A DNA stretch of 64,000 nucleotides from an uncultured Oscillospiraceae bacterium (GCA_900553955.1 USFO01000001.1:7530-71529), one strand, 5' to 3'. Positions 2,084 to 59,374 are shown, numbered from the stretch's first letter. Numbers and translations are program-made. Notes: generated by a model not told the origin, from the sequence alone.

Positions 2084-2126
2084 ATAAAAAACTCCGCCCG
2101 GAGGAGAGGTTCCGGGCGGAATTCAT
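2084..2126 (-). terminator. intrinsic terminator of the NPNTG surface-protein gene
   Basis: Stem ccgcccgga / tccgggcgg; the reverse complement is followed by tttttt. It lies just downstream of the stop at 2162. Confidence 0.55.
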
Positions 2127-2161: not shown

Positions 2162-3580
2162 TTATTTCTTGAGGGAAACAGCAGCTGCAGCAGCTACAGA
2201 AACAACAGCGACAGCGGCTACTACGCCCATAACGGACTCAGCACCGGTGTTGGGGTTCTTCTCGCCTTTGTTCTCTGCAGGAACTTTAACAGCGATCTGA
2301 TACTGACCAAGGGTGGTGTTCTCGCCATCGATGGAGAGTTTAACAGTGTCGTTGTAGTCAACAGTCATGTAGTCAACTTTAACTTCTTTGAGAACCTTGC
2401 CATCTTTGATGATGTAGTAGGTTACGACATCCTGCTCTTCGATCTTTTTGCCGAAGAACTCACGGAGCTGGAAGTAGGTCCAATCAAGGTCGAAGTTTAC
2501 GGTGAATTTGGATTTAACAACCTGATCACCATAGAAACCGAACTCAACTTTTCTGTTCTCGCCGTCAACAGCAAGAGCGGTCTTGTTGGCTTCTTTAACT
2601 TCTTTCTCATAGTACTCAAAGTTTACGCCCTTCTGGCCAGCAGCTACGTTGTAGATGGTGACATCGGCGCTCTTTGCAACTCTGTTGTCGTTCTCTTTAG
2701 CGCTGGGATATACGTTAACAGTGATGTTTTTGCCTTCGATAGCACGGAAAGCAGTGGTGGAGATGACTCTGGAGCCCATGATCTGAGCAAGGTCAGCCTG
2801 CTTGTAGCCGTTCACATAGGTCTCGTAATCGGAGTAACCGGTGTCGAAGAGCTCGAGAGCATATTTGTACTCTGCAGCAGATTTTACATACTCGTATGCA
2901 AAGATGGTGATGTCGTTGACGATCTTCATCTCAGTGTAAACGGTCTTCTTGTCTTCAACTCTGAGAGCGGAAACTTTAACGGAACCTTCGGTGAAGGAAG
3001 CGCTGTAGTTAGCAGCAACAGTGAGCTTGAGGATTTTGATCTCGCTGGTGGTCTTTACATAGAACTGAGTGGTCTTGAAGTATTTGTTGAGAGTTTTCGC
3101 AGCATATGCGCACCAGCCATACTGGTCTTTGCCACCTTCGGGAACGCATTTGCTCCAATCAAGGCCATCGGGCTGAGTATCCTTGTCGTATGCAGGGATC
3201 TTGTTAAGCCATTCGTCGATAGCTTTGCCGTCTTTTCTAACTACCTGATATGCAACGCCGTCTACCCATTCCATGGTCTCGGGGTTGTAGTCCATGACTT
3301 CTGCTTTAACAGTGTCATTGCTGTAGGTAGCCTTTACATCCTTGAGGCCGGTGGTGTTGAGTACGAAGTATGCAACGCCGCCTTTAGCACCGTCGGTGTA
3401 GAGAACTTTGTCAGCAGCGGGATCGCCGAGGATGTCAACAGTGTTTTCGAATTTGATGAGCTTTTTGCCGTCATCGGTTTTTTCAACTTTGTTGAGTTCG
3501 ATCTTGGTAAGAGCAAGAGCGGAAACACCAAGGCTGAGAACCATCATGAGAGCAAGAACAAGAGCAACAATCTTTTTCAT
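2162..3580 (-). CDS. cell-wall-anchored surface protein with NPNTG sorting signal (function unknown)
   Basis: RBS aaaggag precedes the ATG at 3580. Signal peptide MKKIVALVLALMMVLSLGVSALA. The C-terminus reads NPNTG + AESVMGVVAAVAVVSVAAAAAV + SLKK (motif, hydrophobic span, basic tail). Confidence 0.65.
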   Translation of the reverse strand: MKKIVALVLALMMVLSLGVSALALTKIELNKVEKTDDGKKLIKFENTVDILGDPAADKVLYTDGAKGGVAYFVLNTTGLKDVKATYSNDTVKAEVMDYNPETMEWVDGVAYQVVRKDGKAIDEWLNKIPAYDKDTQPDGLDWSKCVPEGGKDQYGWCAYAAKTLNKYFKTTQFYVKTTSEIKILKLTVAANYSASFTEGSVKVSALRVEDKKTVYTEMKIVNDITIFAYEYVKSAAEYKYALELFDTGYSDYETYVNGYKQADLAQIMGSRVISTTAFRAIEGKNITVNVYPSAKENDNRVAKSADVTIYNVAAGQKGVNFEYYEKEVKEANKTALAVDGENRKVEFGFYGDQVVKSKFTVNFDLDWTYFQLREFFGKKIEEQDVVTYYIIKDGKVLKEVKVDYMTVDYNDTVKLSIDGENTTLGQYQIAVKVPAENKGEKNPNTGAESVMGVVAAVAVVSVAAAAAVSLKK

Positions 3581-3850
3581 GTTAGTTTCTCCTTTTAAGA
3601 ATAAATTTTGAGCAATTATCAGAACGCCTTCCCTCTCCCGTCGGGCGATCCAATCAGTTTCTAACGGCGATAAATGTTCTTCGCAAAAGGGGTGAAGAGC
3701 TTTTCCTTTGGCTGTAAATCTTTTTAACCGATTTGTAACATTTATCTTGACCATAATATACCACGCTCCAAGAGCTTTGTCAATAGGTTTTTCAGAAAAT
3801 ATTTCATTTTGTAATAACTTTTTTTACGGAAATGATACTTTTGTAAGGAT

Positions 3851-4111
3851 GTGATGCTTTTGCCGTACCATGATGACGAATATGTGCGCCGCCAAATGCG
3901 CGAGGTGGGATTTTTGATTGCGTATCACAGGCGGCAAAAAGGGCTTTCTCAAGCCAAACTTGCCGATGCTGCCGGCATAAGCCGGCAGCATCTTGCCGCC
4001 GTGGAGGCATCGAGTATGCAGCGGCCTTTTTCCGTGGAATTTTTGATAAAAATTGCCTCTGTGCTCGAAATTTCTCCCGCAGAACTCTTTGAGTATGATA
4101 AAAAAGAGTAA
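3851..4111 (+). CDS. XRE-family HTH transcriptional regulator
   Basis: HTH_3-type motif QKGLSQAKLADAAGISRQHLAAVE. The gene is divergent from the surface-protein gene. Confidence 0.7.
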   Translation: MMLLPYHDDEYVRRQMREVGFLIAYHRRQKGLSQAKLADAAGISRQHLAAVEASSMQRPFSVEFLIKIASVLEISPAELFEYDKKE

Positions 4112-25794: not shown

Positions 25795-25891
25795 TTTTCC
25801 GAATTTACTATTCGATTATAGCGCAAAACACATTTTTTTGCAAACTAAAAGCGGCTTTACCGAAGTAAAGCCGCTTTTGCGCTTGATTTAA

Positions 25892-28800
25892 TTATCCGCG
25901 TTTCTTTTTGCCAAGAATTACTGCCGCAGCAGCAAGAACGGCAACAGCTGCAAAGCCGTTCGGTGCGGGTGCGCCGGTTTCGGGGTTGTTTTCGCCCTTG
26001 TTCTTGTCGCCGCCGATGACGATGTGAATGGTCTGGCTGTTATCGGACAGGCGCGGAATTTCCATTCTCTGCTCAAGGTTGCAAACCTTGCAGTAGCGAA
26101 CCTTTTCGCCCGCTTCGGTTCCGGTGGGCTGCTTTACTATAATCCATTCGCCGAACTGATGAGGTACGACGGGGCTTGCTTTACCCTTTTCGATAAGCTC
26201 GCCGCAGGACTTGCAGTAGGTATCGCCGGTGTAGCCGCTCTCGGTGCAGGTTGCGGCTTTGGCGTTTTTAAGCTCGGTTTCGCCTACATGGTTCTTGGGG
26301 TCCTTGGGGGTTACAATTGTTGTGACTTCGTTCTTTGCGTCCTTATCGGAGTAAAGCTTCTTGCAAACAGTGCATTCCCAATACTCGATGCTGCCCTCCG
26401 CAATGCAGGTGGCTGCTTTTGCGGCATGGTGAACGAGCTTGTGACCGAGAGCCGGAGTATCGACGGTCTTAATCTGCTTTTCAAAGCCGTAGATATTGGC
26501 GCCGAATTCTGCGGTGAACTCAACCTTGCCCTTTTCGGTGCAGGTCGCCTCTTTGAGAGTCTTGGAGGTGACTCTTGCATCTTCGGTGTGAACATGGCTG
26601 TTGTCGTTCTCACAGACTACCTTTCCGGTGAGGGTGCTGTTGTTTGCGCTCCACTCGTAGGTGGGCTTGCCCCACTTATGGCCGATTGCCGGGATTTCAA
26701 CGGTCTTTTCGGCCGCTGCGAACTTGGTAAAGGTTGCAACGAACTTGCCCTCGCCTTTTACTTCGCAGGTTGCCGCTTTAACAACGCTGTAAACGGTGTT
26801 TACGGTTTCGGTTTCAGTGTGGCTCGGATCGCGTTTGCAGGTATGCTTTGCGGTAGCTTCGCTGTTATTGCTGTTCCATGTGTACTCGGTTTCGCCCCAG
26901 TCATGACCGAGAACCGCATTTTCAACTACGGCAGTCTGAGTGGTGAAGCCATATTCATTCTCGCCAAACTCTGCGGTGTAGGTAACCTTGCCCGGAGTGG
27001 TGCAGGTTGCGTTCTCGGTTACGGCGGTGGAGTTCACCGTTTCAGTGTGAACATGGTTTTTGTCGTTCTCGCAGACTACCTTTCCGGTGAGAGTGCTGTG
27101 ATCTGCGCTCCACTCATAGGTGGGCTTGCCCCACTTATGACCGGTCGCCGGGATTTCAACAGTCTTTTCGGTCGCCGCGAACTTGGTGAAGGTTGCCACG
27201 AACTTGCCCTCGCCCTTTACTTCGCAGGTAGCTTCTTTAACTACGCTGTAAACAGCGTCAACGGTTTCGGTTTCGGTCTCGTTCGGGTGCTGTGCGCAGG
27301 AATGAGTTGCGGTTACAGTATTGTTGTCAGCGTTCCAAGTATAGGTGGTTTCGCCCCATTCGTGAGCCTGCCATGCAAGGATGGGATAGCCGCTGTTGAT
27401 GTTCTGCTTATCCATGCGGAAGCTTGCGCCAAGAAGGTCAACCATAGCGGAAGCTTTGAGTTCGGATTCGGTCTTTTCGGTGCCGAAGCCGGTGTTAGCT
27501 GCAAGGCTGTGGCAGCCTTTGAGGTAATAGCAGTTTACAACTGCAGATTCCTTAGTGGTGTCGGAAATTGCGCCGCTTCTGGCTGCGCCGGTTACTTTGC
27601 CGACGTTGTAGCAGTTGGTTATCTGCGGACCTTTGCTCTGCTGAGAGCAAGAGTTAGAGATACCGGAAGCAATTCCGTTCTGGGAAGTTGCAGTAATATT
27701 GCCAACATTGTAGCAATCGGTAATGGTTACGCTTTCAAGCAGCGGGTTCGCAAGGATGCCTGCCACTCTGGAGAAGCCGGTTACTTCAACTGCGGTGAAA
27801 CACTGGCTGATTTTGGTATTCTCATAAGAGAACGCTACCAATCCAGCGGTATATTCTTTGCCGCCGGTAGTTGTTACGCTACCCTTTACGCCAAGTTTGG
27901 TGATAGTTGCAGCTCTTACGGTTCCAAAGAGTGCTTGTCTGCCGTTTGCATTGTTAATATAAAGGTCGCTGATAACATGACCGTTTCCGTCGAATTCGCC
28001 GCTAAACTCCTGATAGTCGTCGCCGATAGGAGTCCAGTTGTAACCGCCGAGGGAAATATCGTTCATCAGCTTTACTTTGCTGATTGCGGTGCCTTTGTTT
28101 ACCTCCGCAGCAATCCATGCAAGCTCTGCGCCGGTTCTTACTTCGTAAACGCCGTCAGCATTGGGGGTTACTTCTGTAGTGGTCTTGCCGTCCCAGATGG
28201 AGGCATCGCCCTTAGTAAGGTTTACAGTAACGGTTTTGCCTGCTGCATCCGCATCAGTAAGAGTGAACTTGCCGTGAGCAGCGACATATCCGTTTGCAAC
28301 TACATCATAGCTGTAATCGCCGATGTTTGCGTTATAAGTTCCGTCTTCGTTCGCTGCAACAACAGCGCCGGTGCCGTCATAAAGGGTTACGACTGCGTTT
28401 GCAGGAGTGCAAACGAATGTTACCTTGATGTCAACAATGGATTTTACGGGAATTGTGATCTCCGGGAGCACGTCTCTTACGTGGTTAGTGGAAACAGCGC
28501 TGAAGTTTGCGCCAACGCCGTTATCAGTAAGAATTCTGTGTCCGCCGAGAGGAGAATCGGTGCCCATAACGTTGAATTTTACATTACCGCCGGAAAGGAC
28601 AACATCGCCTGCACTCTTAGCGGTAAAGATGTATCTGTTGGTGCTGATAAAGTCATACTGACCGCCGCTTGCACTCTTAAATTCAGCGTTATCGGAAAGA
28701 GTATAAGAAACTTTGTGTCCCTGACCAAATCCGGGGTTGTAAATACCGGAGAATTTGGAGATAGGCTGATAAAGTCCATGGAATACAAGTTTGATATCGT

Positions 28801-31201
28801 CGCCCACATAGGCTACATCGCCGCCGCGGGTTACGTTTTCAACGGTGTAAGTCACTTTTGCGGCTCTTACTACCTGATATACGGTCTTGCCGTTCGCAGT
28901 GAACTTCAGAATGTTGTTACCGGTGGCAAGTCCTGCTGCGGTAAAACTGCCGTCTGCATTTTTGCCGACGTTTTTCCAACTTCTGCCCTTATCGGTAGAG
29001 AACTGAACAGTGGGTTCTGCGTCGTCAAGAGTTGCGTTGAAGGAGAAGGCTGCCGCATTGGTAAGGGTATAAACCGTGTCGTACTCGGTATCCCAAATAT
29101 CTTTTGAGCCAACAGCTTTCATGGTAAGTCCGCTGTTATCGCCGCCTACATTGATAACAATAAGGCTGGTACGCTGAGGATCAGTTGCGCCATAAGTGCC
29201 AGAATAGCTGGTGCTGCCGCCGATTTCGATAGCGTCATATCTGACTTCGAGGATGGTAAGACCTTCGGAAACACCTTCAATATCCATCCAGTTGGTCTGT
29301 TCGCCAACGCCGGCGTTACCGGTGCAGCGGTTGGTCGCAGGGGTCATCTTGATATGCTCGCCGCCGGAAATTACGGTGTAGTGGAAATCCGGCTCGATCA
29401 TAATGTTCGCGGTATCACTGTTGATAATCTGCCATGCGCCGCGGTATGCACGGAGTCTGAAGGTTTCACCAACGCCGAGGGAAAGGTTGTTCTGTCCGTT
29501 GACGTTTACCATGGTGCTGCCTTCCATACGCCCTTTAAGGTAGGTGCTGGTAACATTATTTTCTGTGCTTTCGGGGTCTTCATTTTCCGCAAACGTTACG
29601 GTAATGTTCTTATTTCTGCCGCTATCAAAATAGCCGGCTCTGGTTATTTTGCCTTCCATGGAAACGCGGTAGGTAAGGTTGCTGCTGACTGCACGAAGTG
29701 TATGTGTAACAGTTCCATCCTCGTTTTCGGTAGTGGAAGAAACGGGCATTTCTTCAACATTGAAATTCTTAATCTGGCTGAAGAATTTTACGGTTGCGCC
29801 CTTGGGTGCAGTTACAGTGTAATTAACAAGAGAGTTAAGAATGAAGGTCTTCTCTATTGTTTTGCTGGAACCTTCGCCGAAAGTGTTGTTGATGGAAAGT
29901 GCAACGCCATAAGTTTTGGAAAGCTCCTCGTTAAGAGTGATTTTCCAGTTATAAAGCAGTGCATTGCCGTGTGCGAAAAGAAGAGTAGGAGTCATGACGA
30001 AATCGTCGTAACCGTCGTTGTAGATGTACTGAGCACCGGTAACAACGCTCTTCATTTTGCCGGGCATAATGTCGATGGAGTAATCGCCGACTTTCTGCAC
30101 CTTGGGGTTCTCGGTGTAGTAGTTGACTCTTACAAGGGTCATCTTCTGCTCGCTGTGAATCGGCTTGCCGTCCGCGCCGATTTCTACGCTGATAGGTGCT
30201 TCAAAGGTCATTCCGCCGAGGTCGTGGTTGTCCTCGGTATCAACCGCGCGGTAGGAATACATACCGGAAGGAACGGTGATTTCGTAAACATGGTAATTGC
30301 CGCTTACGCCTTTATCAACAACCTTGTCGGCTGCAAGGGCGTTCTGTGCGTCCTCGTCGCTGTAGAAGGTTACGTTGACAGTAGAAGGAGCAACGTTCAC
30401 GGTGATGGTGTATTGTTCATCCCCGGTTGCCGGGAAAGTATAGCCGCAGTGAACGCATTTGCCGTCGCTGCCTCTGGTGCAGGCTTCCTCGCCGGTGCTG
30501 ATAACATAGTCGCACTTTGCACATTTTACGGTTTTGGTGTGATTGCCGTCGTTTTTGGAAACATAGGTGGTATGTTCCTCGTCTCCGGCGCAGGCTTCCT
30601 CGCTGGTGCTGATAACTTCGCCGCACTTTTTGCAGGTAACGGTTACGGTGTGGTTACCGTCGCCCTTTGCGGTGTAGGAAGTTTCGGTTTCGGTGCCGAC
30701 GTGGTCGCACTCCTTGGCAGGGAAAACAGTAACAACAGTTTCTTTTACCTCGCCTTCAGGAATGTCTACATCAGCGGTTGCACCGCCAAAAATCTTTGTT
30801 CCGAACTTTGCTTCTGTTTTTGCTGCTATATCTTCTTTTGCAGTAAATACAACAGTCGCAATAGTTTCGCCCGCTGCAACAGCGCCCTTCATGTTCATAT
30901 TGGTAAGGCCAATCTGAAGATAGCTGCCGTTTTCATCGGTCATGGTGTCTTTTCTTACTGTAATGTCGCTGTTATTAGAAGCAACAGACTTTACAGTAAA
31001 CAAATCTGCGTTGAAGTAAAGCCTTGTTTCAAGAGCGATAAGCCCTGAATACGCTTCATCAACAGTGACATCAATTGTAACATCCTCGCCAGCCTTCACG
31101 GTGGAAGGAGTGACGGTGGGAGTTGCATTTATTGCAAAGGCAGAAATTCCGGTGCTGCACACCATAATAACTGCAAGCAATAAAGAAATCAGTTTTTTCA
31201 T
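25892..31201 (-). CDS. giant (1769 aa) cell-wall-anchored surface protein with a cohesin-like N-terminal module, GLUG-motif region, Cys-rich tandem repeats and an NPETG sorting signal
   Basis: RBS aaggagg. Signal peptide MKKLISLLLAVIMVCSTGISAFA. Cohesin-like beta-sandwich pattern at residues ~25-170. GLUG-like repeats (RQALFG, TAGLVAF, VAGILAN). C-terminus NPETG + hydrophobic span + KKKRG. Confidence 0.8.
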   Translation of the reverse strand: MKKLISLLLAVIMVCSTGISAFAINATPTVTPSTVKAGEDVTIDVTVDEAYSGLIALETRLYFNADLFTVKSVASNNSDITVRKDTMTDENGSYLQIGLTNMNMKGAVAAGETIATVVFTAKEDIAAKTEAKFGTKIFGGATADVDIPEGEVKETVVTVFPAKECDHVGTETETSYTAKGDGNHTVTVTCKKCGEVISTSEEACAGDEEHTTYVSKNDGNHTKTVKCAKCDYVISTGEEACTRGSDGKCVHCGYTFPATGDEQYTITVNVAPSTVNVTFYSDEDAQNALAADKVVDKGVSGNYHVYEITVPSGMYSYRAVDTEDNHDLGGMTFEAPISVEIGADGKPIHSEQKMTLVRVNYYTENPKVQKVGDYSIDIMPGKMKSVVTGAQYIYNDGYDDFVMTPTLLFAHGNALLYNWKITLNEELSKTYGVALSINNTFGEGSSKTIEKTFILNSLVNYTVTAPKGATVKFFSQIKNFNVEEMPVSSTTENEDGTVTHTLRAVSSNLTYRVSMEGKITRAGYFDSGRNKNITVTFAENEDPESTENNVTSTYLKGRMEGSTMVNVNGQNNLSLGVGETFRLRAYRGAWQIINSDTANIMIEPDFHYTVISGGEHIKMTPATNRCTGNAGVGEQTNWMDIEGVSEGLTILEVRYDAIEIGGSTSYSGTYGATDPQRTSLIVINVGGDNSGLTMKAVGSKDIWDTEYDTVYTLTNAAAFSFNATLDDAEPTVQFSTDKGRSWKNVGKNADGSFTAAGLATGNNILKFTANGKTVYQVVRAAKVTYTVENVTRGGDVAYVGDDIKLVFHGLYQPISKFSGIYNPGFGQGHKVSYTLSDNAEFKSASGGQYDFISTNRYIFTAKSAGDVVLSGGNVKFNVMGTDSPLGGHRILTDNGVGANFSAVSTNHVRDVLPEITIPVKSIVDIKVTFVCTPANAVVTLYDGTGAVVAANEDGTYNANIGDYSYDVVANGYVAAHGKFTLTDADAAGKTVTVNLTKGDASIWDGKTTTEVTPNADGVYEVRTGAELAWIAAEVNKGTAISKVKLMNDISLGGYNWTPIGDDYQEFSGEFDGNGHVISDLYINNANGRQALFGTVRAATITKLGVKGSVTTTGGKEYTAGLVAFSYENTKISQCFTAVEVTGFSRVAGILANPLLESVTITDCYNVGNITATSQNGIASGISNSCSQQSKGPQITNCYNVGKVTGAARSGAISDTTKESAVVNCYYLKGCHSLAANTGFGTEKTESELKASAMVDLLGASFRMDKQNINSGYPILAWQAHEWGETTYTWNADNNTVTATHSCAQHPNETETETVDAVYSVVKEATCEVKGEGKFVATFTKFAATEKTVEIPATGHKWGKPTYEWSADHSTLTGKVVCENDKNHVHTETVNSTAVTENATCTTPGKVTYTAEFGENEYGFTTQTAVVENAVLGHDWGETEYTWNSNNSEATAKHTCKRDPSHTETETVNTVYSVVKAATCEVKGEGKFVATFTKFAAAEKTVEIPAIGHKWGKPTYEWSANNSTLTGKVVCENDNSHVHTEDARVTSKTLKEATCTEKGKVEFTAEFGANIYGFEKQIKTVDTPALGHKLVHHAAKAATCIAEGSIEYWECTVCKKLYSDKDAKNEVTTIVTPKDPKNHVGETELKNAKAATCTESGYTGDTYCKSCGELIEKGKASPVVPHQFGEWIIVKQPTGTEAGEKVRYCKVCNLEQRMEIPRLSDNSQTIHIVIGGDKNKGENNPETGAPAPNGFAAVAVLAAAAVILGKKKRG
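26435..27364 (-). repeat. two tandem ~470-bp intragenic repeats (~90% nt identity) encoding ~155-aa Cys-containing modules
   Basis: DNA around 26620-26880 and 27040-27300 is near-identical. The protein repeats run HEWGETTYTWN...AVLG and HDWGETEYTWN...ALGHK. Confidence 0.7.
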
Positions 31202-31219: not shown

Positions 31220-32341
31220 TTAATTTTCAGCCTTGAATTTATCTATAAGACCGTTATAATACTTTATCATATCTATAACGTCAAAAAGATTGACTTTTCC
31301 GTCACCGGTAACGTCTGCGGCTTTCAACTGCTCGTCAGAAAGTGCATTTCCGGTTCCGTTATAATGTCTTATCATCGCGATTATGTCAAACAGGTTTACC
31401 TTACCATCACCTGTCAAATCGCCGTAAACAACATTACCGCTGCCGCCCTCTACAACAACCTTGCAATATGCCGGAGAAGAAACAATCTCTTCCTCATATT
31501 CAACGCCAAGCTCGCCGTAAGCCCAAAGGTAGTAAACGCCGCCTTTGTCAAAAGTGATCTTCGCTTTGCCGTTTGCATCGGTGATTACGGTTTGTGCGCT
31601 TTCCTCATCATAAAGCTCCTTGCCGTAATATATCTTGCTGTTTGCGGAGGGCGTACCTACACCGGTAGTTCCTTGATCTATGTTGCCAAAAATCCTTGTG
31701 TAGCTTATTTCCAAGGGTTCGCCGGCTTTTGCCGCATACTCGTGAGTTATGTTGCCTTTTTCATCAAGGAAATAGTGGAAGCCCGCCGCCGGGTCAGAGT
31801 AAAAGCTCCAGCTTTCATACATGGTAACATCGATAAAATCCCCATCGTTAAGCGCAATTACATCTGCGGTTGCGCCCATGTTCGGACCAAGGGTCGGGTC
31901 CATGGGATAATCGCCGTTTACATAGTAGAGCAGGTTTTCATCATGTCCCCAAAACCCATATTTCATATACATACTATGGGGGCTTCCCTCGATTTGCAGT
32001 TCTCTTGCCGTTCCGTGATAGTATTTATTAAGAACATAAAGATAAAGTTGAAGCACCGTAATATCGTACTTTCCGTTCTTGTCCTCATCGTGATAATACT
32101 CCTGAAGATTATAGTCTTCAAGCTTTATATTGCGAAGCTCGGCAAGGTTAACCGGAACATACGCCATAATCGTGCCTGCGTCAACGCCGTCGCTGACAAC
32201 ATACCTATCATCCTTGCTTATGGATATGTAAGCGGTTCCATTTACCTCCTCATATTCATACTCCTCCGCGGCAAGCACCGTTACAGGAAGCACTCCAACC
32301 GCCATAATTACGGCGAGAATGAGTGCCAATAATTTTTTCAT
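31220..32341 (-). CDS. secreted dockerin-containing protein (N-terminal module of unknown function plus C-terminal type-I dockerin)
   Basis: Signal peptide MKKLLALILAVIMAVGVLPVTVLA. Two Ca-binding dockerin repeats: GDLTGDGKVNLFDIIAMIRHY and ADVTGDGKVNLFDVIDMIKYY. 18-nt spacing to the downstream giant gene. Confidence 0.75.
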   Translation of the reverse strand: MKKLLALILAVIMAVGVLPVTVLAAEEYEYEEVNGTAYISISKDDRYVVSDGVDAGTIMAYVPVNLAELRNIKLEDYNLQEYYHDEDKNGKYDITVLQLYLYVLNKYYHGTARELQIEGSPHSMYMKYGFWGHDENLLYYVNGDYPMDPTLGPNMGATADVIALNDGDFIDVTMYESWSFYSDPAAGFHYFLDEKGNITHEYAAKAGEPLEISYTRIFGNIDQGTTGVGTPSANSKIYYGKELYDEESAQTVITDANGKAKITFDKGGVYYLWAYGELGVEYEEEIVSSPAYCKVVVEGGSGNVVYGDLTGDGKVNLFDIIAMIRHYNGTGNALSDEQLKAADVTGDGKVNLFDVIDMIKYYNGLIDKFKAEN

Positions 32342-32782: not shown

Positions 32783-33988
32783 TTATTCGTTGATTTCGAT
32801 AACAACACCGGAACCGACGGTTCTGCCGCCTTCACGGATAGCGAAGCGGAGACCTTTTTCGATTGCGATAGGCTCGATAAGTTCAACATCCATCTCGACG
32901 TTATCGCCGGGCATGCACATCTCGGTGCCTTCGGGAAGGGTGATAACACCGGTAACGTCAGTGGTTCTGAAGAAGAACTGAGGACGATAGTTGTTGAAGA
33001 AAGGAGTATGACGGCCACCTTCGTCTTTCTTGAGGACGTAAACCTGTCCGCGGAAAGCTTTGTGAGGATGGATGGAGCCGGGTTTGGAAAGAACCTGACC
33101 ACGTTTTACTTCAGTTCTCTGGATGGAACGGAGAAGAGCACCGATGTTGTCGCCTGCCTCGCCATAGTCGAGGATCTTGTGGAACATTTCTACGCCGGTA
33201 ACAACGGTTTTCTTTTTCTCTTCGCTAAGGCCAACGATTTCAACTTCGTCGCCGGTTTTAACCTGACCACGCTCTACACGGCCGGTAACAACAGTGCCAC
33301 GACCGGTGATGGTGAAGATGTCTTCGATAGGCATAAGGAAAGGAAGGTCAGCTTTACGCTCAGGAGTAGGAATGTAAGAGTCAACAGCGTCAAGAAGAGC
33401 CTGGATGGGCTTGTAGCACTCTGCATCAGGATCGTTGCTGGTGTCTTCGAGGCAAGCAAGAGCGGAGCCTGCGATAACAGGGGTTTCGTCGCCGGGATAT
33501 CCGTACTCGGTAAGAAGCTCACGAACTTCCATCTCTACGAGCTCGAGCATTTCGGTATCGCCGTTGAGCTGGTCAACTTTGTTAAGGAATACTACGATGT
33601 AGGGAACACCTACCTGACGGGAAAGAAGGATGTGCTCACGGGTCTGAGGCATAGGACCATCAGCAGCGGAAACTACGAGGATGGTACCATCCATCTGTGC
33701 AGCACCGGTGATCATGTTCTTGATGTAGTCGGCATGTCCGGGGCAGTCAACGTGAGCATAGTGACGGTTTGCAGTCTCATACTCAACGTGTGCGGTGTTA
33801 ATCGTGATACCACGAGCTTTTTCTTCAGGAGCTTTGTCGATTGCGTCATATGCCTCGTACTGTGCCCAACCTTTAAGGCTGAGGTACTTGGTGATGGCAG
33901 CAGTCAGAGTGGTTTTACCATGGTCGATATGGCCGATGGTGCCGATATTAACATGGGGTTTGGTTCTCTCAAAATGTTGTTTTGCCAT
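32783..33988 (-). CDS. tuf: elongation factor Tu
   Basis: [32 protein letters not shown]... Confidence 0.97.
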
Positions 33989-34126
33989 TTAAGATTGTCC
34001 TCCTTACAGTTAAATTCTTTCTTTTTTTATTTCTGGGCTATTACATACTATTTTATACTAAAACAAAAATTTTGCAAGCTGAAAAGCGGCATTATTTTTG
34101 CTTTTGACAAAATATTTTTCCATTGC

Positions 34127-36196
34127 TTATCTATTTTTAATAATCTCTTCAGCAATGGACTTCGGAACTTCAACATAATGGCTGGGTTCCATAACATACT
34201 GTCCGCGTCCTTGGGTTTTGGAACGAAGGTCGCTTGCATAACCGAACATTTCGGAAAGCGGAACATATGCTTTGATTTCTTTTGCGCCGTAGTTATCATC
34301 CATACCGCGGATCTGGCCACGTCTGGAAGAAAGGTCACCCATAACATCGCCCATGTATTCCTCGGGGAATGTTACGGTTACGTTCATGATCGGCTCAAGC
34401 AGAACGGGATCTGCTTTTCTCATAGCTTCCTTGAATGCCATAGAACCGGCAATGGTAAATGCCATTTCGGAAGAGTCGACCTCGTGGTAAGAACCGTCGT
34501 AAAGAGTAACCTTTACGTCAACAACGGGATAACCCGCGAGGACACCGGCATTAAGAGCACCCTGGATACCTTTGTTAACAGGCTCAATGTACTCTTTCGG
34601 GATTGCGCCACCAACAACTGCGTTGATGAACTCGTAGCCCTTGCCGCTTTCGTTCGGTTCGACCTTAATTTTAACATGACCGTACTGACCTTTACCGCCG
34701 GACTGACGGGCATATTTGGTTTCCTGGTCAACAGCCTTTCTGATAGTCTCTTTATAAGCAACCTGAGGTTTACCGACGTTTGCTTCTACCTTAAATTCAC
34801 GAAGAAGACGGTCAACGATGATTTCGAGGTGAAGCTCACCCATACCAGCGATGATGGTCTGTCCGGTTTCTTTATCGGTATAAGCTTTGAAGGTAGGATC
34901 TTCTTCAGCAAGCTTTGCAAGAGCAATAGCCATTTTCTCCTGGCCTGCCTTGGTCTTCGGTTCGATTGCAAGGTCGATAACAGGCTCCGGGAACTCCATT
35001 TTTTCAAGCTCGATAGGAGCTTTGGGGTCGCAAAGGGTATCGCCGGTGGTAGTGTACTTAAGACCTACCGCCGCTGCGATATCGCCGCAGTAGCAGATAT
35101 CAAGATCTTTTCTGTGGTTTGCGTGCATCTGAAGGATGCGGCCTATTCTTTCGTTCTTATCCTTGGTGGAGTTGAGAACGGTGGAACCGGCTTCAACAAT
35201 ACCGGAATAAACTCTGAAGAAGCAGAGTTTTCCGACGAACGGGTCGGCAGCAATCTTGAATGCAAGCGCTGCAAGAGGCTCGTCATCACCGGGCTTGCGT
35301 TCGACTTCTTCTCCGGTGTGGAAATCAACGCCTCTTACAGGCGGGATGTCAAGAGGAGAAGGCATATAGTCAACAATAGCATCGAGCAGCTTTTGAACGC
35401 CTTTGTTGCGGTAAGAAGTGCCGCAGCATACGGGAACGAAATCGTTGTCGATGGTGCCTTTTCTGATGGCGGCTTTGAGTTCGCCAATGGTGAGCTCTTC
35501 GCCGTCAAGGTATTTCATCATAAGCTCTTCGTCAACTTCCGCAGCGGTTTCAACAAGCTTTTCGCGATATTCTTCGCAAAGATCCTTCATATTGTCCGGA
35601 ACGTCAGTAACTTCAATGTTCGTGCCAAGATCGTCAAGATAATAATAAGCTTTCATTTCAAGAAGGTCAACAAGACCTTTGAAATCGGATTCAGCTCCGA
35701 TAGGAAGCTGAATTACCAGCGGAACAGCTTTAAGTCTGGTCTTGACCATATCTACGACATGGAAGAAGTTCGCACCCATGATATCCATCTTGTTGACGTA
35801 AATCATGCGCGGTACTTTATATTTGTTTGCCTGACGCCATACGGTTTCAGACTGGGGTTCTACGCCGCCTTTTGCGCAGAGAACGGTTACAGAACCGTCA
35901 AGCACGCGGAGAGATCTTTCAACCTCAACAGTAAAGTCTACGTGTCCGGGAGTATCGATGATGTTGATACGGTGGCCGTTCCAATATGCGGTGGTTGCGG
36001 CGGAGGTGATGGTAATACCTCTTTCCTGCTCCTGAACCATCCAGTCCATGGTGGCGCTGCCATCGTGAGTTTCACCGATTTTGTAGTTAACACCGGTATA
36101 GTAAAGTATGCGTTCGGTTGTGGTAGTCTTTCCTGCGTCGATGTGAGCCATGATACCGATATTTCGGGTCATCTCAAGTGAAACATCTCTTGCCAT
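34127..36196 (-). CDS. fusA: elongation factor G
   Basis: [35 protein letters not shown]... Confidence 0.97.
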
Positions 36197-36246
36197 AAAA
36201 ACTCCTTAATAAATGCAAAAATAAATAACAAACAGATTAAAAAGAA

Positions 36247-36717
36247 TTACCATCTGAAGTGTGCAAATGCCTTGTTGGCATCGGCCATTCTGTGGGTTTC
36301 TTCCTTCTTCTTAACAGCACCGCCGGTGCTGTTCATTGCGTCCATAATTTCGCCTGCAAGACGCTCCTTCATGGTGCGCTCGTTACGAGTTCTGGAGAAG
36401 TTGGTGAGCCAGCGGAGACCAAGGGTCTCACGGCGCTCAGGTCTGACCTCAAGCGGTACCTGGTAGTTTGCACCACCGACACGGCGGGTCTTACATTCGA
36501 GAACGGGCATGATGTTTTCGAGAGCTTCCTCAAAAGCTTCAAGTCCGTTTTTGCCGGTTTTCTCGGTTACGATGTCAAATGCACCGTAAACGATTTTCTG
36601 TGCAACACCTTTCTTACCGTCAAGCATGATGTTGTTGATAAGACGGGTTACCATTTTGGAATTATAAACAGGATCCGGCAATACGTCACGTTTTGCAATA
36701 TTTCCTCTTCTTGGCAC
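36247..36717 (-). CDS. rpsG: 30S ribosomal protein S7
   Basis: GTG start ([18 protein letters not shown]...) preceded by RBS aaggaggg. 156 aa. Confidence 0.9.
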
Positions 36718-36871
36718 TTTTCTTCCCTCCTTCATAAATAATAATGAATTCACAGGTACTCGAAAGCGACAAACCTCCGTTGTGCCCAAAAGGGGATGAA
36801 TAATTATATCATCGCACCGTTATGGGCGCTTATTCACTAATTTTTCAAATTAGGAAACCGGAAATTTGCTC

Positions 36872-37297
36872 TTACTTCTTTGCACCAGCCTTCGGACGCT
36901 TTGCACCGTATTTGGAACGGGCCTGCATCCTCTTTGCGACGCCCTGAGCATCAAGGGTTCCGCGGACAATGTGGTAACGAACACCAGGAAGGTCCTTTAC
37001 ACGGCCGCCTCTGATAAGAACGACGCTGTGCTCCTGAAGGTTGTGGCCGATACCGGGAATGTAAGAGGTAACTTCCATTCCGTTGCTCAGACGTACTCTG
37101 GCGATTTTACGAAGAGCAGAGTTCGGCTTCTTCGGGGTCGCGGTACGGATAGCGGTGCAAACGCCACGCTTCTGCGGGCTGTGCTGGTCAATGGCAACCT
37201 TTTTCTTGGAGTTCCAACCTCTCAGCAAAGCCGGAGCGGTGGATTTGGTCTCAAGATCATGTCTTCCGTTGTGAACGAGCTGGTTAAAAGTAGGCAT
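36872..37297 (-). CDS. rpsL: 30S ribosomal protein S12
   Basis: [28 protein letters not shown]... conserved S12. Confidence 0.95.
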
Positions 37298-37544
37298 AGG
37301 TTTCCTCCTTTCTTCAGTTTTTACCGTTTGGGCATGGTTGTCCCCAAAGCAGGAACTACCAATTTCAAATTATAGCATTCTTTCTGCCCGGTGTCAACAA
37401 AATTTTATGTAGGTATTTCACAAAAATGAGGCTCCGGATTAGTGCAAAATGCCTAAACAAAGCGCATATTTTATCGACTCATGTTCATACAGCCGATGAA
37501 ATATCGCAACATTGCAAAAAATTTTATGCAAAAATGCAAGGAGG

Positions 37545-37585
37545 CATAAAATACCGGCTTTTCGCTTCCGAAAAGCCGGTATTAC
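37545..37585 (-). terminator. intrinsic terminator downstream of rpoC
   Basis: Perfect stem ataccggcttttcg / cgaaaagccggtat. Confidence 0.6.
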
Positions 37586-37610
37586 TTTAAATAAACGAAT
37601 AATAAAGATA

Positions 37611-40600
37611 TTATTCTTTAGCAGCGGAAGCTTCCTCCATGGCGCGCTCATACTCGCTGCCGTTGTCAAGGGGCTTTATTTCCGGCATGGTTGCGGAATA
37701 GGTTGCATTGTTATAGCACTCCATGCCGGTACCTGCGGGAACAAGCTTACCGATGATGACATTCTCTTTAAGTCCGAGCAGGCGGTCGGTTTTGCCCTTA
37801 ATCGCCGCTTCGGTAAGAACACGGGTGGTTTCCTGGAAGGATGCGGCGGACATAAAGCTTTCTGTCGCAAGAGACGCTTTGGTGATACCAAGGAGCATCG
37901 GGATGTAGGTCGCTTCGCGCAGGCCGGTTTCTCCCTCTGCAATACGTCTTCTGATTTCTCTGTTTTCCGCGAACAGCTCGCCCTTTTCGACGGTCATACC
38001 GGAAAGCAGATGAGTATCGCCCTGGTCGTCGACCTTTACCTTCTTCATCATCTGGCGAACGATAACCTCGATGTGCTTATCGTTGATGTCAACACCTTGG
38101 AGGCGGTAAACCTTCTGAACCTCGGCGATAAGGTAGTCCTGAACGGCAAGAGCGCCGTTGATGTCGAGATACTTATGCGGGTTGACGGAGCCTTCGGTGA
38201 GGAGGGAGCCTGCCTTTACCCTGTCGCCTTCCTTTACGCAGGGATGGCTGCCGTAGGTGATAAGATATTTGCGTTCGTCGCCGGTTTCCTTATTGTAAAT
38301 AACGATATGGCGGTTCTTCTTGATTTCCTCAATACGAACCTCGCCGTCGATTTCGGAGATAATGGCTTCGCGCTTGGGATTTCTTGCCTCAAACAGCTCC
38401 TCAACACGGGGAAGACCCTGTGTAATATCCTCTGCGGAAGCGATACCGCCGGTATGGAAGGTACGCATGGTAAGCTGAGTACCGGGTTCGCCTATGGACT
38501 GCGCCGCGATTACGCCGACGGCCTCGCCGACGGAAACAGGCTTGCCGTTGGCAAGGTTCATGCCGTAGCACTTGGCGCAAACGCCCTGTTTCGCTTCGCA
38601 GTTAAGAATGGTTCTGATTTTGACGGAGGTGATGCCGGCCTCTTTGACGCGCTTCGCATCCACATCGTCCATCATCTTGTCTTTGCTTACGATAATCTCG
38701 CCGGTGGTCGGATCCACAATGTCTTCGACGGCGTAACGTCCCACAAGACGCTCGGTCATCGGCTCGATCATTTCTCCGCCCTCTTTGATGTCGCAAACCA
38801 CAATGCCCTCGTGAGTTCCGCAGTCCTGCTCACGGATGATAACATCCTGAGAAACGTCAACAAGACGTCTGGTAAGGTAACCGGAGTCTGCGGTACGAAG
38901 TGCGGTATCCGCCAAGCCCTTACGAGCGCCACGGCTGGATATGAAGTATTCGAGTATGTTAAGACCCTCACGATAGTTTGCACGAATAGGAATTTCTATG
39001 GCTTTACCGGAGGTGTTGGCGATAAGTCCGCGCATACCCGCAAGCTGACGAATCTGGTTCATGGAGCCACGAGCACCGGAGTCCGCCATCATGAAGATTG
39101 GGTTATATTTGTCAAGGTTGTCTTTCAGTGCGTCGGCAACCTTATCGGTGGTTTCGTTCCAGGTGGCGATTACCTTCTTGTAGCGTTCCTCGTTGGACAT
39201 AAGACCGCGGCGGTACTGCTTGGTGATGGTATCGACCTTTTTTTCTGCTTCCTGAAGAAGCTCATATTTCTTCGGAGGAATTACGGCGTCGCTTACGGAG
39301 ACGGTGATTGCGCTCTTGGTGGAATATTTGAAGCCCTGAGCCTTAACTCTGTCGAGCACCTGACCGGTGATTGCGGTTCCGTGCTTCTTTACGCAGCGGT
39401 CGATAATCTGACCGAGCTGCTTTTTGCCCACAAGGAAGTCGATTTCAAGGTCGAATTCGTGCTCGGGGTCGGTTCTGTCAACATAGCCGAGATCCTGAGG
39501 AATGGGCATATTGAAAATGGTTTTACCCACGGTGGTGCGAATGATTTTGCTGCGCTTGGTTCCGTCCTCGTCGGTTTTCTCCATACGAATGAATATCGGA
39601 GCGTGAAGACCCACAACGCCTGCGGAATATGCCATAATGGCCTCGTTTACATCGCGGAACACCTTGCCCTCGCCCTCTTCGTAGCCGGGCTTTTCGAGGG
39701 TAAGATAGTAGGAGCCGAGCACCATGTCCTGAGTAGGAACGGTAACGGGCTTGCCGTCGGAGGGCTTGAGCAGGTTGTTCGCGGCAAGCATAAGGAATCT
39801 TGCCTCTGCCTGAGCCTCGGTGGAAAGCGGAACATGAACTGCCATCTGGTCGCCGTCGAAGTCCGCGTTGTATGCGGTACAGGCAAGAGGATGCAGCTTC
39901 AGCGCTCTGCCCTCTACCAATACGGGTTCAAAAGCCTGAATACCGAGTCTGTGAAGCGTAGGAGCACGGTTGAGCATAACCGGGTGGTCTTTAATGACGA
40001 TTTCGAGAGCGTCCCAAACCTCCGGGCGTGCTCTTTCCACCATTTTTCTTGCGTTCTTGATGTTGGTGGCTGCGCCCACGTCCACAAGGCGCTTCATTAC
40101 GAAGGGCTTGAAGAGCTCCAGCGCCATTTCCTTAGGAAGACCGCACTGGCTCATTTTAAGCTCCGGTCCTACGACGATAACGGAACGGCCGGAGTAGTCG
40201 ACGCGCTTACCGAGAAGGTTCTGACGGAAACGGCCCTGTTTCCCCTTGAGCATATCGGAAAGGGATTTGAGCGGTCTGTTGTTGGGGCCGGTGACGGGTC
40301 TGCCGCGGCGGCCGTTGTCAATAAGTGCGTCCACCGCTTCCTGGAGCATACGCTTTTCGTTGCGGACAATGATGTCCGGCGCGCCCAGCTCAAGAAGTCT
40401 GGTAAGGCGGTTATTTCTGTTGATAACTCGTCTGTAAAGGTCGTTGAGGTCGGAGGTGGCAAATCTGCCGCCGTCGAGCTGCACCATAGGACGAATATCC
40501 GGAGGAATTACCGGCACAACATCGAGAATCATCCATTCGGGGCGGTTGCCGGAGAGACGGAACGCCTCTGCAACCTCAAGGCGCTTGAGCAGGCGCACAC

Positions 40601-41204: not shown

Positions 41205-41222
41205 TATTTGCAGCCCTCCCCA

Positions 41223-58534: not shown

Positions 58535-59374
58535 ATGAAAAAATTTGCTATAAGCTTTTCCGCTTTTATATGCGCGGTTCTCATGCTCTCCGCAACTGCG
58601 TTTGCAGCGGAGAAAATAACCGCCTATGACGGCATTAAATCAAGCTATTATGTCGACAAATCCGCTTCGTTCGGAAAAGAAATCGACATAACCGATTCCT
58701 ACGAAACCCTCGGCGTGCAGGCAAAAGCCAAAACCGACGAGCTGATTCCGATTTACTATACCGATACCGAATTGACAGAGAAACTTCAAAATATGTTAGC
58801 GGAAATTTCACGCGGAAAAAGCCTTGAAAGCTTTCTCATTCCAAAAAATCAGTATTTTGCTTTTGCCTATAACGGCAACAAAGCGGTGGGCTACTGCATA
58901 CTCTCGGACAAGCTCGAAATGCAGGAAGTCGGTGAACTTAACGAATTCAACAACCCGGCGCTCCGTCTGAACAACAAAGCCACGAAAGCACTCAGCAGCA
59001 TTGATTTGAACAACGCTTCCGCAAAATACTGCATAATTTCCGGCTTTGCCGTTGGAACGCTGATTTACGACAGCAACAGCGAATTTTTTATTCCGTCCGT
59101 CGAATGCCTTGAAACTGCAAATGTTCTTACGGTCGGCTCCGTTTACCGCGTTTCCGATTTATACACAATAAGCGCGCAAATGCCCGAAAAAGCACCGAAC
59201 TCTCTTGACGAAAACGGCAACCCATACACCGGCGCCGAATATTACAGCAACATTTCCGCCAACAAACCGTCCCATATCGAAGCCGTTCCGGTTATGTTCC
59301 TTTCGGCTTCTGTAATTTTCGCCGTAGCAGCGGGATTTCAAATAAGAAAAGTTAAAGACAAACATTCCAAATAA
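58535..59374 (+). CDS. secreted protein with C-terminal membrane anchor, hypothetical
   Basis: RBS aggaggg. Signal peptide ...ATAFAAEK. C-terminal TM VMFLSASVIFAVAAGF plus basic tail. Promoter TTGTAG-17-TATAAT at 58462-58490. Confidence 0.45.
   Translation: MKKFAISFSAFICAVLMLSATAFAAEKITAYDGIKSSYYVDKSASFGKEIDITDSYETLGVQAKAKTDELIPIYYTDTELTEKLQNMLAEISRGKSLESFLIPKNQYFAFAYNGNKAVGYCILSDKLEMQEVGELNEFNNPALRLNNKATKALSSIDLNNASAKYCIISGFAVGTLIYDSNSEFFIPSVECLETANVLTVGSVYRVSDLYTISAQMPEKAPNSLDENGNPYTGAEYYSNISANKPSHIEAVPVMFLSASVIFAVAAGFQIRKVKDKHSK

What the first reader, a model, noticed from the sequence alone, without database searches (positions are those of the whole stretch)
2162..2262. Both surface proteins in the window use an NPxTG sorting signal, but no sortase gene lies in the window
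The protein at 2162-3580 ends NPNTG-AESVMGVVAAVAVVSVAAAAAV-SLKK. The giant protein ends NPETG-APAPNGFAAVAVLAAAAVILG-KKKRG (25892-25990). NPxTG is the class-B sortase type, as in B. anthracis IsdC NPKTG and clostridial (S/P/N)PxTG substrates, and differs from housekeeping LPxTG. A dedicated class-B sortase encoded elsewhere is implied. The 3851-4111 XRE regulator is divergent from the first gene and is a candidate local regulator.
Basis: partly seen in the sequence, partly recalled or inferred. Interest (0 to 1): 0.55.

Follow-up and report, generated by a model that had tools for sequence, protein, structure and literature searches.

The report
NPxTG cell-wall anchors, class B sortase
Two (probably three) secreted proteins of an uncultured human-gut Oscillospiraceae bacterium end in an NPxTG cell-wall sorting signal, a variant NCBI already curates for Ruminococcus; the likely matching enzyme is a class B sortase encoded outside the window, unusually fused to two other domains.

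Summary
ORF 2162-3580(-) ends NPNTG + hydrophobic stretch + SLKK. ORF 25892-31201(-) ends NPETG + hydrophobic stretch + KKKRG. No sortase lies in the window or within 10 kb of either end. A third candidate was missed (58535-59374, NPYTG).

The signal is not new. NCBIfam NF033846 "Rumino_NPXTG" matches both tails, at 25.1 and 22.6 bits against a cutoff of 23.5 when the tails are scanned alone.

In about 374 kb from this clade, every sorting-type tail is NPxTG and none is LPxTG. A strict KGExNPxTGA DNA pattern found 25 in-frame C-terminal copies in four sister MAGs. NPxTG therefore looks like the clade's general signal, not a dedicated side system.

The class B inference is supported. A metagenome contig 99% identical to the window carries a class B sortase domain 3.3 kb from the NPNTG gene. 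The domain sits inside a 1127-aa fusion: CinA-like, TM, SrtB, Ser-rich linker, SpoIID. The fusion is conserved across the clade, and in one relative NPxTG genes lie within about 5 kb on both sides.

The giant protein carries an N-terminal cohesin and follows a dockerin gene, so it looks like a sortase-anchored scaffoldin. The XRE regulator idea remains untested.

The parts
2162..3580 (-). Protein 1: 472-aa secreted, beta-rich surface protein of unknown fold, ending in an NPNTG cell-wall sorting signal.
   Evidence: The start at 3580 has an AGGAG ribosome-binding site. No Pfam family matched. The AlphaFold model was unusable, mean pLDDT 38.
2162..2269 (-). Sorting signal of protein 1: KGEK-NPNTG-A + 22 mostly hydrophobic residues + SLKK + stop. 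The NPNTG codons are at 2243-2257.
   Evidence: NF033846 scores 22.6 bits on the isolated tail and 16.8 bits in the full protein, cutoff 23.5.
2086..2119 (-). Intrinsic-terminator-like hairpin plus T-run after protein 1.
   Evidence: Sequence CCGCCCGGA...TCCGGGCGGAGTTTTTT.
3755..3783 (-). Sigma-70-like promoter (TTGACA, 17 nt, TATATT) upstream of protein 1. It overlaps the upstream ATG at 3754, so the 530-aa reading is spurious.
   Evidence: Read directly from the sequence.
3851..4111 (+). XRE-family HTH protein of 86 aa, divergent from protein 1.
   Evidence: Pfam HTH_3, 49.1 bits. The adjacency is conserved in strains L001-L006 and in sister species. No functional link was tested.
25892..31201 (-). 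Giant 1769-aa surface protein: signal peptide, N-terminal cohesin, Cys-rich repeats, a large central domain, and an NPETG sorting signal.
30797..31114 (-). Cohesin module, aa 30-135 of the giant protein.
   Evidence: Pfam PF00963 scores 31.3 bits (gathering cutoff 24.1) on the first 200 aa. The AlphaFold model has pLDDT 84.8. The top 22 Foldseek PDB matches are cohesins.
25892..25999 (-). Sorting signal of the giant protein: KGEN-NPETG-A + hydrophobic stretch + KKKRG + stop. The NPETG codons are at 25973-25987.
   Evidence: NF033846 scores 25.1 bits on the isolated tail, at or above the 23.5 cutoff.
25847..25877 (-). Intrinsic-terminator-like hairpin after the giant gene.
31220..32341 (-). 373-aa secreted protein with a C-terminal type I dockerin. 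Its stop codon lies 18 nt upstream of the giant gene's start, so the two are probably one operon.
   Evidence: Pfam Dockerin_1, E 1.4e-11. The same pairing of a dockerin gene with an NPNTG giant gene occurs in a distant relative, L011.
58535..59374 (+). Third candidate substrate: 279-aa secreted protein ending NPYTG-AEYY + 19-aa spacer + hydrophobic stretch + RKVKDKHSK. The NPYTG codons are at 59219-59233.
   Evidence: NPYTGAEYY is conserved in strain variants L007-L010 while the spacer varies. NF033846 does not hit it, and the spacer is unusually long.

Best explanation
The two proteins, and probably a third, are exported through Sec. They are held at the membrane by a C-terminal hydrophobic stretch and a basic tail. 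A class B-type sortase then cuts them between T and G of NPxT|G and joins them covalently to peptidoglycan.

In this small clade of uncultured gut Oscillospiraceae, E-x-N-P-x-T-G-A is the general sorting signal, not a special-purpose one. The most likely enzyme is a conserved chromosomal protein encoded outside the window. It places a class B sortase domain after a cytoplasmic CinA-like domain and a membrane helix, and before a Ser-rich linker and an extracellular SpoIID/LytB domain.

The giant substrate carries a cohesin at its far end and is encoded just downstream of a dockerin protein. It probably acts as a wall-anchored scaffoldin that holds dockerin-bearing partners on the cell surface.

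Shown: the signal anatomy and its conservation, the absence of a sortase nearby, the existence and class of the fused sortase, and the cohesin and dockerin domains.

Inferred: cleavage, wall linkage, the enzyme-substrate pairing, and cohesin-dockerin binding.
For: Anatomy and non-random occurrence of the tails.

The motif is invariant while its flanks diverge.

NF033846 Rumino_NPXTG is the best-matching model for both tails.

The genome-collection scan with KGExNPxTGA returned 47 loci, about 35 of which are expected by chance. It gave 25 in-frame C-terminal copies, all from four related MAGs. None of the hits in unrelated phyla lies at a sorting-type C-terminus.

All sorting-type tails in about 374 kb of clade DNA are NPxTG.

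Sortase: L005 1462-4845 matches TIGR03064 (class B) at 142.6 bits over the whole model and Pfam Sortase at 31.4 bits. All 15 PDB matches are class B, led by B. anthracis SrtB. The YGHN, TLSTC and DAR motifs are conserved in the eight orthologues inspected out of about 40.

The rest of the L005 contig is 98.8-99% identical to the window, and the NPNTG gene lies 3.3 kb from the sortase.

In relative L192, NPNTG and NPSTG proteins lie about 5 kb and 4 kb from the fused sortase, one on each side.

Literature: class B sortases typically target NPXTG or NPQTN, and they need residues outside the pentapeptide (PMC11987632).

Cohesin and dockerin.
Against: No complete genome of the species was available, so other sortases cannot be excluded.

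The sortase-bearing 5.6 kb of L005 joins the window-like part at an IS200/IS605 transposase gene. It could therefore be an assembly chimera with a sister species. Its exact protein was not found in the protein collection, and the closest orthologues are only 73-75% identical.

The TIGR03064 score is below the equivalog cutoff of 153.75.

The sortase is normally not next to its presumed substrates.

No biochemical evidence exists for cleavage or wall linkage.

Six sister-species proteins carry the full motif with no membrane tail, which the classical mechanism does not explain.
Confidence: 0.72

Rival explanations
1. The NPxTG proteins are true sortase substrates, but the cognate enzyme is a different, unseen sortase elsewhere in the genome. 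The CinA-SrtB-SpoIID fusion would then serve another purpose, for example in sporulation or wall remodelling.
For: Only about 84 kb of the species' genome was inspected directly. The fusion carries SpoIID and CinA-like domains unrelated to protein sorting. The linkage in L005 may be chimeric.
Against: The fusion keeps the catalytic His, Cys and Arg in the eight orthologues inspected. It is restricted to the same clade that uses NPxTG. It is flanked by NPxTG genes in L192. Its closest solved relative is an NPKTG-specific enzyme.
Confidence: 0.18
2. One reading: NPxTG marks a dedicated accessory class B pathway, like Isd/IsdC, running beside a housekeeping LPxTG/class A pathway.
For: In Bacillus and Staphylococcus, NPKTG and NPQTN are used by one or a few substrates of an accessory SrtB. 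This rests on established knowledge and PMC11987632.
Against: No LPxTG tail occurs in about 374 kb of clade DNA, against more than 25 NPxTG tails on unrelated proteins. There are 8-10 strict-pattern copies per sister genome. The sortase gene lies among housekeeping genes and not in a substrate operon.
Confidence: 0.07
3. The tails are only C-terminal membrane anchors and NPxTG is incidental. The proteins would stay in the membrane uncleaved.
For: No experimental evidence of cleavage exists. The third protein has an atypically long 19-residue spacer.
Against: The pattern occurs 3 times against 0.07 expected. The motif is invariant while neighbouring residues vary. The same motif recurs on many unrelated proteins of the clade at the same distance from the hydrophobic stretch. 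A curated sorting-signal model matches it.
Confidence: 0.03

Closest known systems
NCBIfam NF033846 'Rumino_NPXTG' (NPXTG-anchored protein), a 30-position C-terminal domain model
   Same: It has the same motif, the same tripartite tail and the same broad lineage (Ruminococcus/Oscillospiraceae). The model starts at the N of NPxTG. The giant protein's isolated tail scores 25.1 bits against a cutoff of 23.5.
   Different: Both window proteins fall below the cutoff when scanned full length (16.8 and 17.0 bits), so routine annotation would miss them. Protein 1's isolated tail is borderline at 22.6 bits. This clade also has a conserved upstream extension, (IHI...)KGE-x, and an invariant A after the G.
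Bacillus anthracis SrtB / IsdC (NPKTG) and Staphylococcus aureus SrtB / IsdC (NPQTN)
   Same: The motif starts with Asn-Pro. The clade's sortase domain is closest in sequence to these enzymes (1rz2 E 2.6e-26, 1qwz E 1.4e-21). Residues flanking the pentapeptide matter for baSrtB (PMC11987632), and here the flanks are conserved.
   Different: Those enzymes are accessory, stand-alone enzymes of about 250 aa in a haem-uptake operon with one substrate. Here there are many unrelated substrates and no haem genes. The sortase domain is embedded in a fusion of 1050-1365 aa that sits among housekeeping genes.
Clostridioides difficile SrtB, a class B enzyme that serves as the organism's only functional sortase and recognises (S/P)PxTG and NVQTG (own knowledge; structures 4ux7 and 5gyj matched)
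   Same: A member of the Clostridia uses a class B sortase as its general sortase with a non-LPxTG motif.
   Different: The motif consensus differs (NPxTGA here). The C. difficile enzyme is a stand-alone protein.
Sortase-anchored single-cohesin scaffoldins: R. flavefaciens ScaE, R. bromii Sca2 and Sca5 (PMC5301203, PMC4611034, PMC5814915)
   Same: They combine a cohesin with a C-terminal sortase signal, have dockerin-bearing partners, and belong to the same family-level lineage.
   Different: The giant protein is much larger (1769 aa). Its cohesin is at the extreme N-terminus, followed by long domains of unknown function. No glycoside hydrolase or sca-type gene cluster lies nearby. Binding was not tested.

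Membership tests
Sortase-dependent cell-wall sorting signal (CWSS) | N-terminal Sec signal peptide | tested here: met
   Read from the sequence: MKKIVALVLALMMVLSLGVSALA, MKKLISLLLAVIMVCSTGISAFA and MKKFAISFSAFICAVLMLSATAFA. No predictor was run.
Sortase-dependent cell-wall sorting signal (CWSS) | Pentapeptide motif, then a hydrophobic stretch, then a basic tail, within the last 30-40 residues or so | tested here: met
   Met for protein 1 and the giant protein. The third protein has the motif 51 residues from its end, after a 19-aa spacer, which is atypical.
Sortase-dependent cell-wall sorting signal (CWSS) | Cleavage after Thr and amide linkage to peptidoglycan | not testable with these tools
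   This needs biochemistry or mass spectrometry.
NCBIfam NF033846 Rumino_NPXTG | Score at or above the curated cutoff of 23.5 bits | tested here: inconclusive
   Full-length proteins score 16.8 and 17.0 bits, below the cutoff. Isolated tails score 22.6 bits (protein 1, below) and 25.1 bits (giant, above). It is the best-scoring model in every case.
LPXTG anchor models (TIGR01167, Pfam PF00746) | Score at or above the cutoff (15.9 and 20 bits) | tested here: not met
   TIGR01167 scores 14.7 and 15.7 bits on the isolated tails. Neither TIGR01167 nor PF00746 (Gram_pos_anchor) was listed for the full-length proteins.
Class B sortase (candidate enzyme, L005 1462-4845, outside the window) | Sortase fold signature with the catalytic His, Cys (TLxTC) and Arg | tested here: met
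   Pfam PF04203 scores 31.4 bits, cutoff 26.6. YGHN, TLSTC and DAR are conserved in the eight orthologues inspected.
Class B sortase (candidate enzyme, L005 1462-4845, outside the window) | Class-specific model TIGR03064 at or above its equivalog cutoff of 153.75 bits | tested here: not met
   It scores 142.6 bits over model positions 6-235 of 235. It is the best sortase model, and no other class model matched at E<0.01. All 15 PDB matches are class B.
Class B sortase (candidate enzyme, L005 1462-4845, outside the window) | Stand-alone architecture of about 220-260 aa with a single N-terminal membrane anchor | tested here: not met
   The domain lies in a 1127-aa fusion: CinA-like (MoCF_biosynth), TM, SrtB, Ser-rich linker, SpoIID/LytB.
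Class B sortase (candidate enzyme, L005 1462-4845, outside the window) | Encoded in the same genome as the window | tested here: inconclusive
   It is contiguous with 14 kb that is 98.8-99% identical to the window, but the junction lies at an IS element. Its exact sequence is absent from the protein collection. Orthologues occur in sister species.
Cohesin module (giant protein, N-terminus) | Pfam PF00963 at or above 24.1 bits, and a cohesin fold | tested here: met
   It scores 31.3 bits on aa 1-200. The model has pLDDT 84.8, and the top Foldseek hits are cohesins at E 1e-7 to 1e-5.
Cohesin module (giant protein, N-terminus) | Calcium-dependent binding of a dockerin | not testable with these tools
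   Only adjacency to a dockerin gene is shown.
XRE-family local regulator (3851-4111) | HTH_3 DNA-binding domain | tested here: met
   PF01381 scores 49.1 bits.
XRE-family local regulator (3851-4111) | Regulates the divergent neighbouring gene | not tested
   Only conserved adjacency is known.

The most novel reading that the evidence does not exclude
In this clade of uncultured gut Oscillospiraceae, the only housekeeping sortase is a three-part protein: a cytoplasmic CinA-like domain, a membrane helix, a class B sortase, a Ser-rich linker and a SpoIID/LytB wall-remodelling domain. It anchors the whole surface proteome, cohesin scaffoldins included, through an extended (IHI...)KGE-x-NPxTG-A signal. 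The same enzyme may also act on secreted proteins that carry the motif followed by only 4-5 residues (NPNTGAEVIG*) and no membrane tail. That would be sortase processing without the classical retention signal.
Probability: 0.35. Interest if true: 0.65.

Novelty: new member of a known kind. Interest (0 to 1): 0.38.

Why it matters
On its own the finding is ordinary. NPxTG tails are a curated variant of the sortase signal, and linking them to class B sortases is textbook.

Three things have some value.

First, standard models (Pfam Gram_pos_anchor, TIGR01167, and NF033846 on full-length proteins) miss these tails. Surface-proteome and cellulosome or amylosome surveys of gut Oscillospiraceae that look only for 'LPXTG' will therefore undercount anchored scaffoldins.

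Second, the clade appears to run its whole wall-anchoring on a class B-type enzyme with an unusual fusion architecture that links sorting to a peptidoglycan-remodelling domain.

Third, tail-less NPxTG proteins in sister species suggest a variation on sortase substrate recognition that could be tested directly.

Tried and rejected
- **Protein 1 fold.** Pfam and NCBIfam gave no family for the 472-aa protein. AlphaFold with 19 shallow homologues gave pLDDT 38, so no fold search was attempted.

- **Sortase next to distant homologues.** Gene neighbourhoods of the distant NPNTG homologues P0272 and P0299 held no sortase.

- **Plasmid-collection seeds.** A tblastn search of the plasmid collection with S. 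aureus SrtB returned only ICE- or plasmid-borne class B sortases. These came from R. albus pRUMAL01, a Monoglobus ICE, and 'Subdoligranulum' records whose neighbouring substrates end TPQTG or LPQTG. They served only as HMM seeds.

- **Genome scan and species identity.** The single genome-contig scan found no genome of the window's own species. Sister MAGs are 75-90% identical, so no species name beyond 'Oscillospiraceae bacterium' was obtained.

- **Linking the L005 sortase to the species' NCBI MAGs.** Exact-sequence look-ups were negative. Cluster members came from other assemblies.

- **Literature.** Searches found no paper on NPxTG in Ruminococcus or on the fusion sortase. Cellulosome papers simply write 'LPXTG'.

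- **Lipoprotein ending KGENPNT*.** I considered whether it is a truncated substrate and set the idea aside. No tail follows in any frame, and the spacing differs from the consensus.

Full report

- ORF 2162-3580(-) encodes 472 aa and ends ...NKGEKNPNTG-AESVMGVVAAVAVVSVAAAAAV-SLKK*.
- ORF 25892-31201(-) encodes 1769 aa and ends ...NKGENNPETG-APAPNGFAAVAVLAAAAVILG-KKKRG*.
- Both begin with typical Sec signal peptides.
- The real start of the first gene is 3580. It has an AGGAG ribosome-binding site. The upstream ATG at 3754 lies inside a TTGACA-17-TATATT promoter-like site.
- Both genes end at hairpin-plus-T-run terminators.

**The motif is not chance.**

- The DNA pattern for NPxTGA occurs 3 times in the window against 0.07 expected.
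- KGExNPxTGA occurs 2 times against 0.00 expected.
- NPNTG is invariant in 120 homologues of protein 1.
- NPETG is invariant in about 80 homologues of the giant protein, down to about 50% identity. More remote relatives have NPDTG or NPNTG.

**A third candidate was missed.** ORF 58535-59374(+) has a signal peptide and ends NPYTGAEYY + 19-residue spacer + hydrophobic stretch + RKVKDKHSK. NPYTGAEYY stays fixed in strain variants while the spacer changes.

**No sortase nearby.** A six-frame search for TLxTC-type motifs and phmmer/hmmsearch with sortase seeds found no sortase in the window. Gene tables for the 10 kb beyond each end list none either.

**Organism.**

- The window carries rpoB, rpoC, fusA and tuf.
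- Identical proteins occur in human-gut metagenomes (Hadza, Nepal and others) and in NCBI MAGs labelled 'Oscillospiraceae bacterium' (GCA_964312995.1, GCA_934474505.1).
- No genome of the same species was found in the species-representative collection. The nearest MAGs are 75-90% identical.

**Is the signal known?** Yes.

- NCBIfam NF033846 'Rumino_NPXTG: NPXTG-anchored protein' is the best model for both tails.
- On full-length proteins it scores 16.8 and 17.0 bits, below the 23.5 cutoff.
- On isolated tails it scores 22.6 bits (protein 1) and 25.1 bits (giant).
- The generic LPXTG model TIGR01167 stays just below its cutoff, at 14.7 and 15.7 against 15.9.
- Cellulosome and amylosome papers on Ruminococcus write only 'LPXTG' or 'sortase signal'.

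**How general is NPxTG in the lineage?**

- I scanned one genome per species (596 Gb) for the DNA pattern encoding KGExNPxTGA. It returned 47 loci, and about 35 are expected by chance.
- The hits in unrelated phyla are not at sorting-type C-termini.
- In contrast, 25 in-frame C-terminal copies all come from four related MAGs. CAKSLF01 has 10, CAAGBQ01 has 9 on eight loci, SFFD01 has 3 in-frame plus one locus not in frame, and CALBGD01 has 1.
- They sit on unrelated proteins of 300 to about 2000 aa.
- A generic search for hydrophobic-plus-basic C-termini over about 374 kb of clade DNA found only NPxTG-type signals, with x = N, E, H, S or Y. It found no LPxTG.
- Many tails share a longer upstream module, ...IHI(x6-8)KGE-x-NPxTG-A.

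NPxTG is therefore the clade's general sorting signal. It is not a minority signal served by a dedicated accessory enzyme.

**The sortase.**

- An HMM built from class B sortases was run against all fetched loci. It hit one ORF strongly (E 1e-56): L005 1462-4845.
- L005 is a metagenome contig (ERZ15609759, NODE_357) that carries the identical 472-aa protein. It is 98.8-99% identical to the window from position 5638 onward.
- The ORF encodes 1127 aa: a CinA-like MoCF_biosynth domain, a membrane helix, a class B sortase domain, a Ser-rich linker and a SpoIID/LytB domain.
- The sortase domain scores 142.6 bits on TIGR03064 over the whole model (cutoff 153.75) and 31.4 bits on Pfam Sortase.
- All 15 PDB sequence matches are class B sortases. 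The best is B. anthracis SrtB, the NPKTG enzyme.
- About 40 orthologues of 1050-1365 aa keep the fusion. Some carry an extra Big_3 domain. The eight inspected all keep the YGHN, TLSTC and DAR motifs.
- The usual context is iscS-thiI-fusion-pgk-tpi-gpmI.
- In L005 the gene is followed by an IS200/IS605 transposase and then the window-type genes, which puts it 3.3 kb from the NPNTG gene.
- In the more distant relative L192 (GCA_965348455.1), an NPNTG protein lies about 5 kb upstream and an NPSTG protein about 4 kb downstream of the fusion.

**Caveats on the sortase.**

- The L005 junction at an IS could be an assembly chimera with a sister species.
- The exact protein could not be found in the protein collection.
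- I could not census sortases in a complete genome.

**The substrates.**

- The giant protein starts with a cohesin. Pfam PF00963 scores 31.3 bits on the first 200 aa. The AlphaFold model has pLDDT 84.8, and its top 22 Foldseek PDB matches are cohesins.
- The gene immediately upstream (31220-32341) encodes a secreted protein with a type I dockerin. Its stop codon is 18 nt from the giant gene's start.
- The same dockerin-plus-giant pairing is seen in a distant relative.
- Paralogues of the giant protein's central domain carry a dockerin instead of the anchor, or a tail-less NPxTG end.
- The giant protein therefore resembles sortase-anchored scaffoldins such as ScaE, Sca2 and Sca5. It is much larger, and no glycoside hydrolase gene was identified among the neighbours examined.
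- Protein 1 has no recognisable family, and its structure prediction failed.

**XRE gene.** ORF 3851-4111 is an HTH_3 protein. Its divergent position is conserved. Nothing else bears on a regulatory role.

**Unexplained.** Six secreted proteins from two families, spread over three of the four sister MAGs, end ...KGExNP[NS]TGAEV[ILF]G(E)*. They have no hydrophobic or basic tail in any downstream frame. The classical retention-then-cleavage mechanism does not account for them.

**Verdict.**

- The class B inference is supported, though not proven for this exact genome.
- The 'dedicated, non-housekeeping' framing is not supported.
- The signal itself is an already curated kind.
- The fused sortase and the tail-less substrates are the parts worth following up.

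Noticed in passing
window 58535-59374 (+): A third secreted protein (279 aa, no Pfam family) ends NPYTGAEYY + 19-aa spacer + hydrophobic stretch + RKVKDKHSK. The motif is conserved in strain variants while the spacer varies. It is a likely extra sortase substrate that the finding missed.
   Followed up: partly
window 59556-60230 (+): A lipoprotein-like ORF (LLLCSCQAG lipobox region) ends ...LDTKGENPNT*. That is the KGE/NPxT context cut off exactly where a sortase would cleave. No tail follows in any frame, and it has one residue fewer between E and N than the consensus. This may be coincidence.
   Followed up: partly
L005 1462-4845 (ENA ERZ15609759 NODE_357); orthologues P0304-P0342; loci L190-L197: A 1050-1365-aa fusion protein has the order CinA-like (MoCF_biosynth), TM helix, class B sortase, Ser-rich linker, optional Big_3, and SpoIID/LytB. 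It is conserved next to thiI in a small Oscillospiraceae clade. The search returned only 42 homologues, and no literature was found.
   Followed up: partly
L145 1869-3371(-), L157 296-2812(-), L152 6185-7999(-), L168 3567-6179(-), L170 2-1192(+), L185 5264-6778(-): Secreted proteins of sister MAGs end ...KGExNP[NS]TGAEV[ILF]G(E)*. They carry the full sorting motif but only 4-5 residues after it, with no membrane-spanning or basic tail downstream.
   Followed up: partly
Clade loci L143-L185; window 25990-26040: Many NPxTG tails are preceded by a conserved module, (P)RLSD-x4-IHI-x6-8-KGE-x-NPxTG-A. This suggests that recognition, or a structural element, extends about 25 residues upstream of the pentapeptide.
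   Followed up: no
window 31220-32341 (-) and 25892-31201 (-); L011 8811-15928: A dockerin-protein gene lies immediately upstream of the giant cohesin/NPxTG gene, with an 18-nt gap. The same pairing recurs in a distant relative, which suggests a conserved two-gene surface module.
   Followed up: partly
window 3752-3800 (-): The 530-aa version of protein 1, called in some public assemblies, starts at an ATG inside a TTGACA-17-TATATT promoter-like site. The 472-aa version, which has an AGGAG RBS, is the real one.
   Followed up: yes
L005 4846-5640 against window about 5823: A strain-specific breakpoint next to an IS200/IS605 (Y1_Tnp) gene replaces the DegV-side genes with thiI and the sortase. 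It is either an IS-mediated rearrangement or an assembly chimera.
   Followed up: partly
L018 17071-20594; L022 13708-15229; L019 19806-20576; L017 11629-12519: Other class B sortases in Oscillospirales records sit on plasmids or ICEs, or next to substrates ending TPQTG or LPQTG. Class B enzymes in this order therefore cover several motifs.
   Followed up: no
window 32783-44963 (-): The tuf, fusA, rpoC and rpoB genes lie just upstream of the surface-protein pair, so the giant gene sits in a core, highly expressed chromosomal neighbourhood.
   Followed up: no
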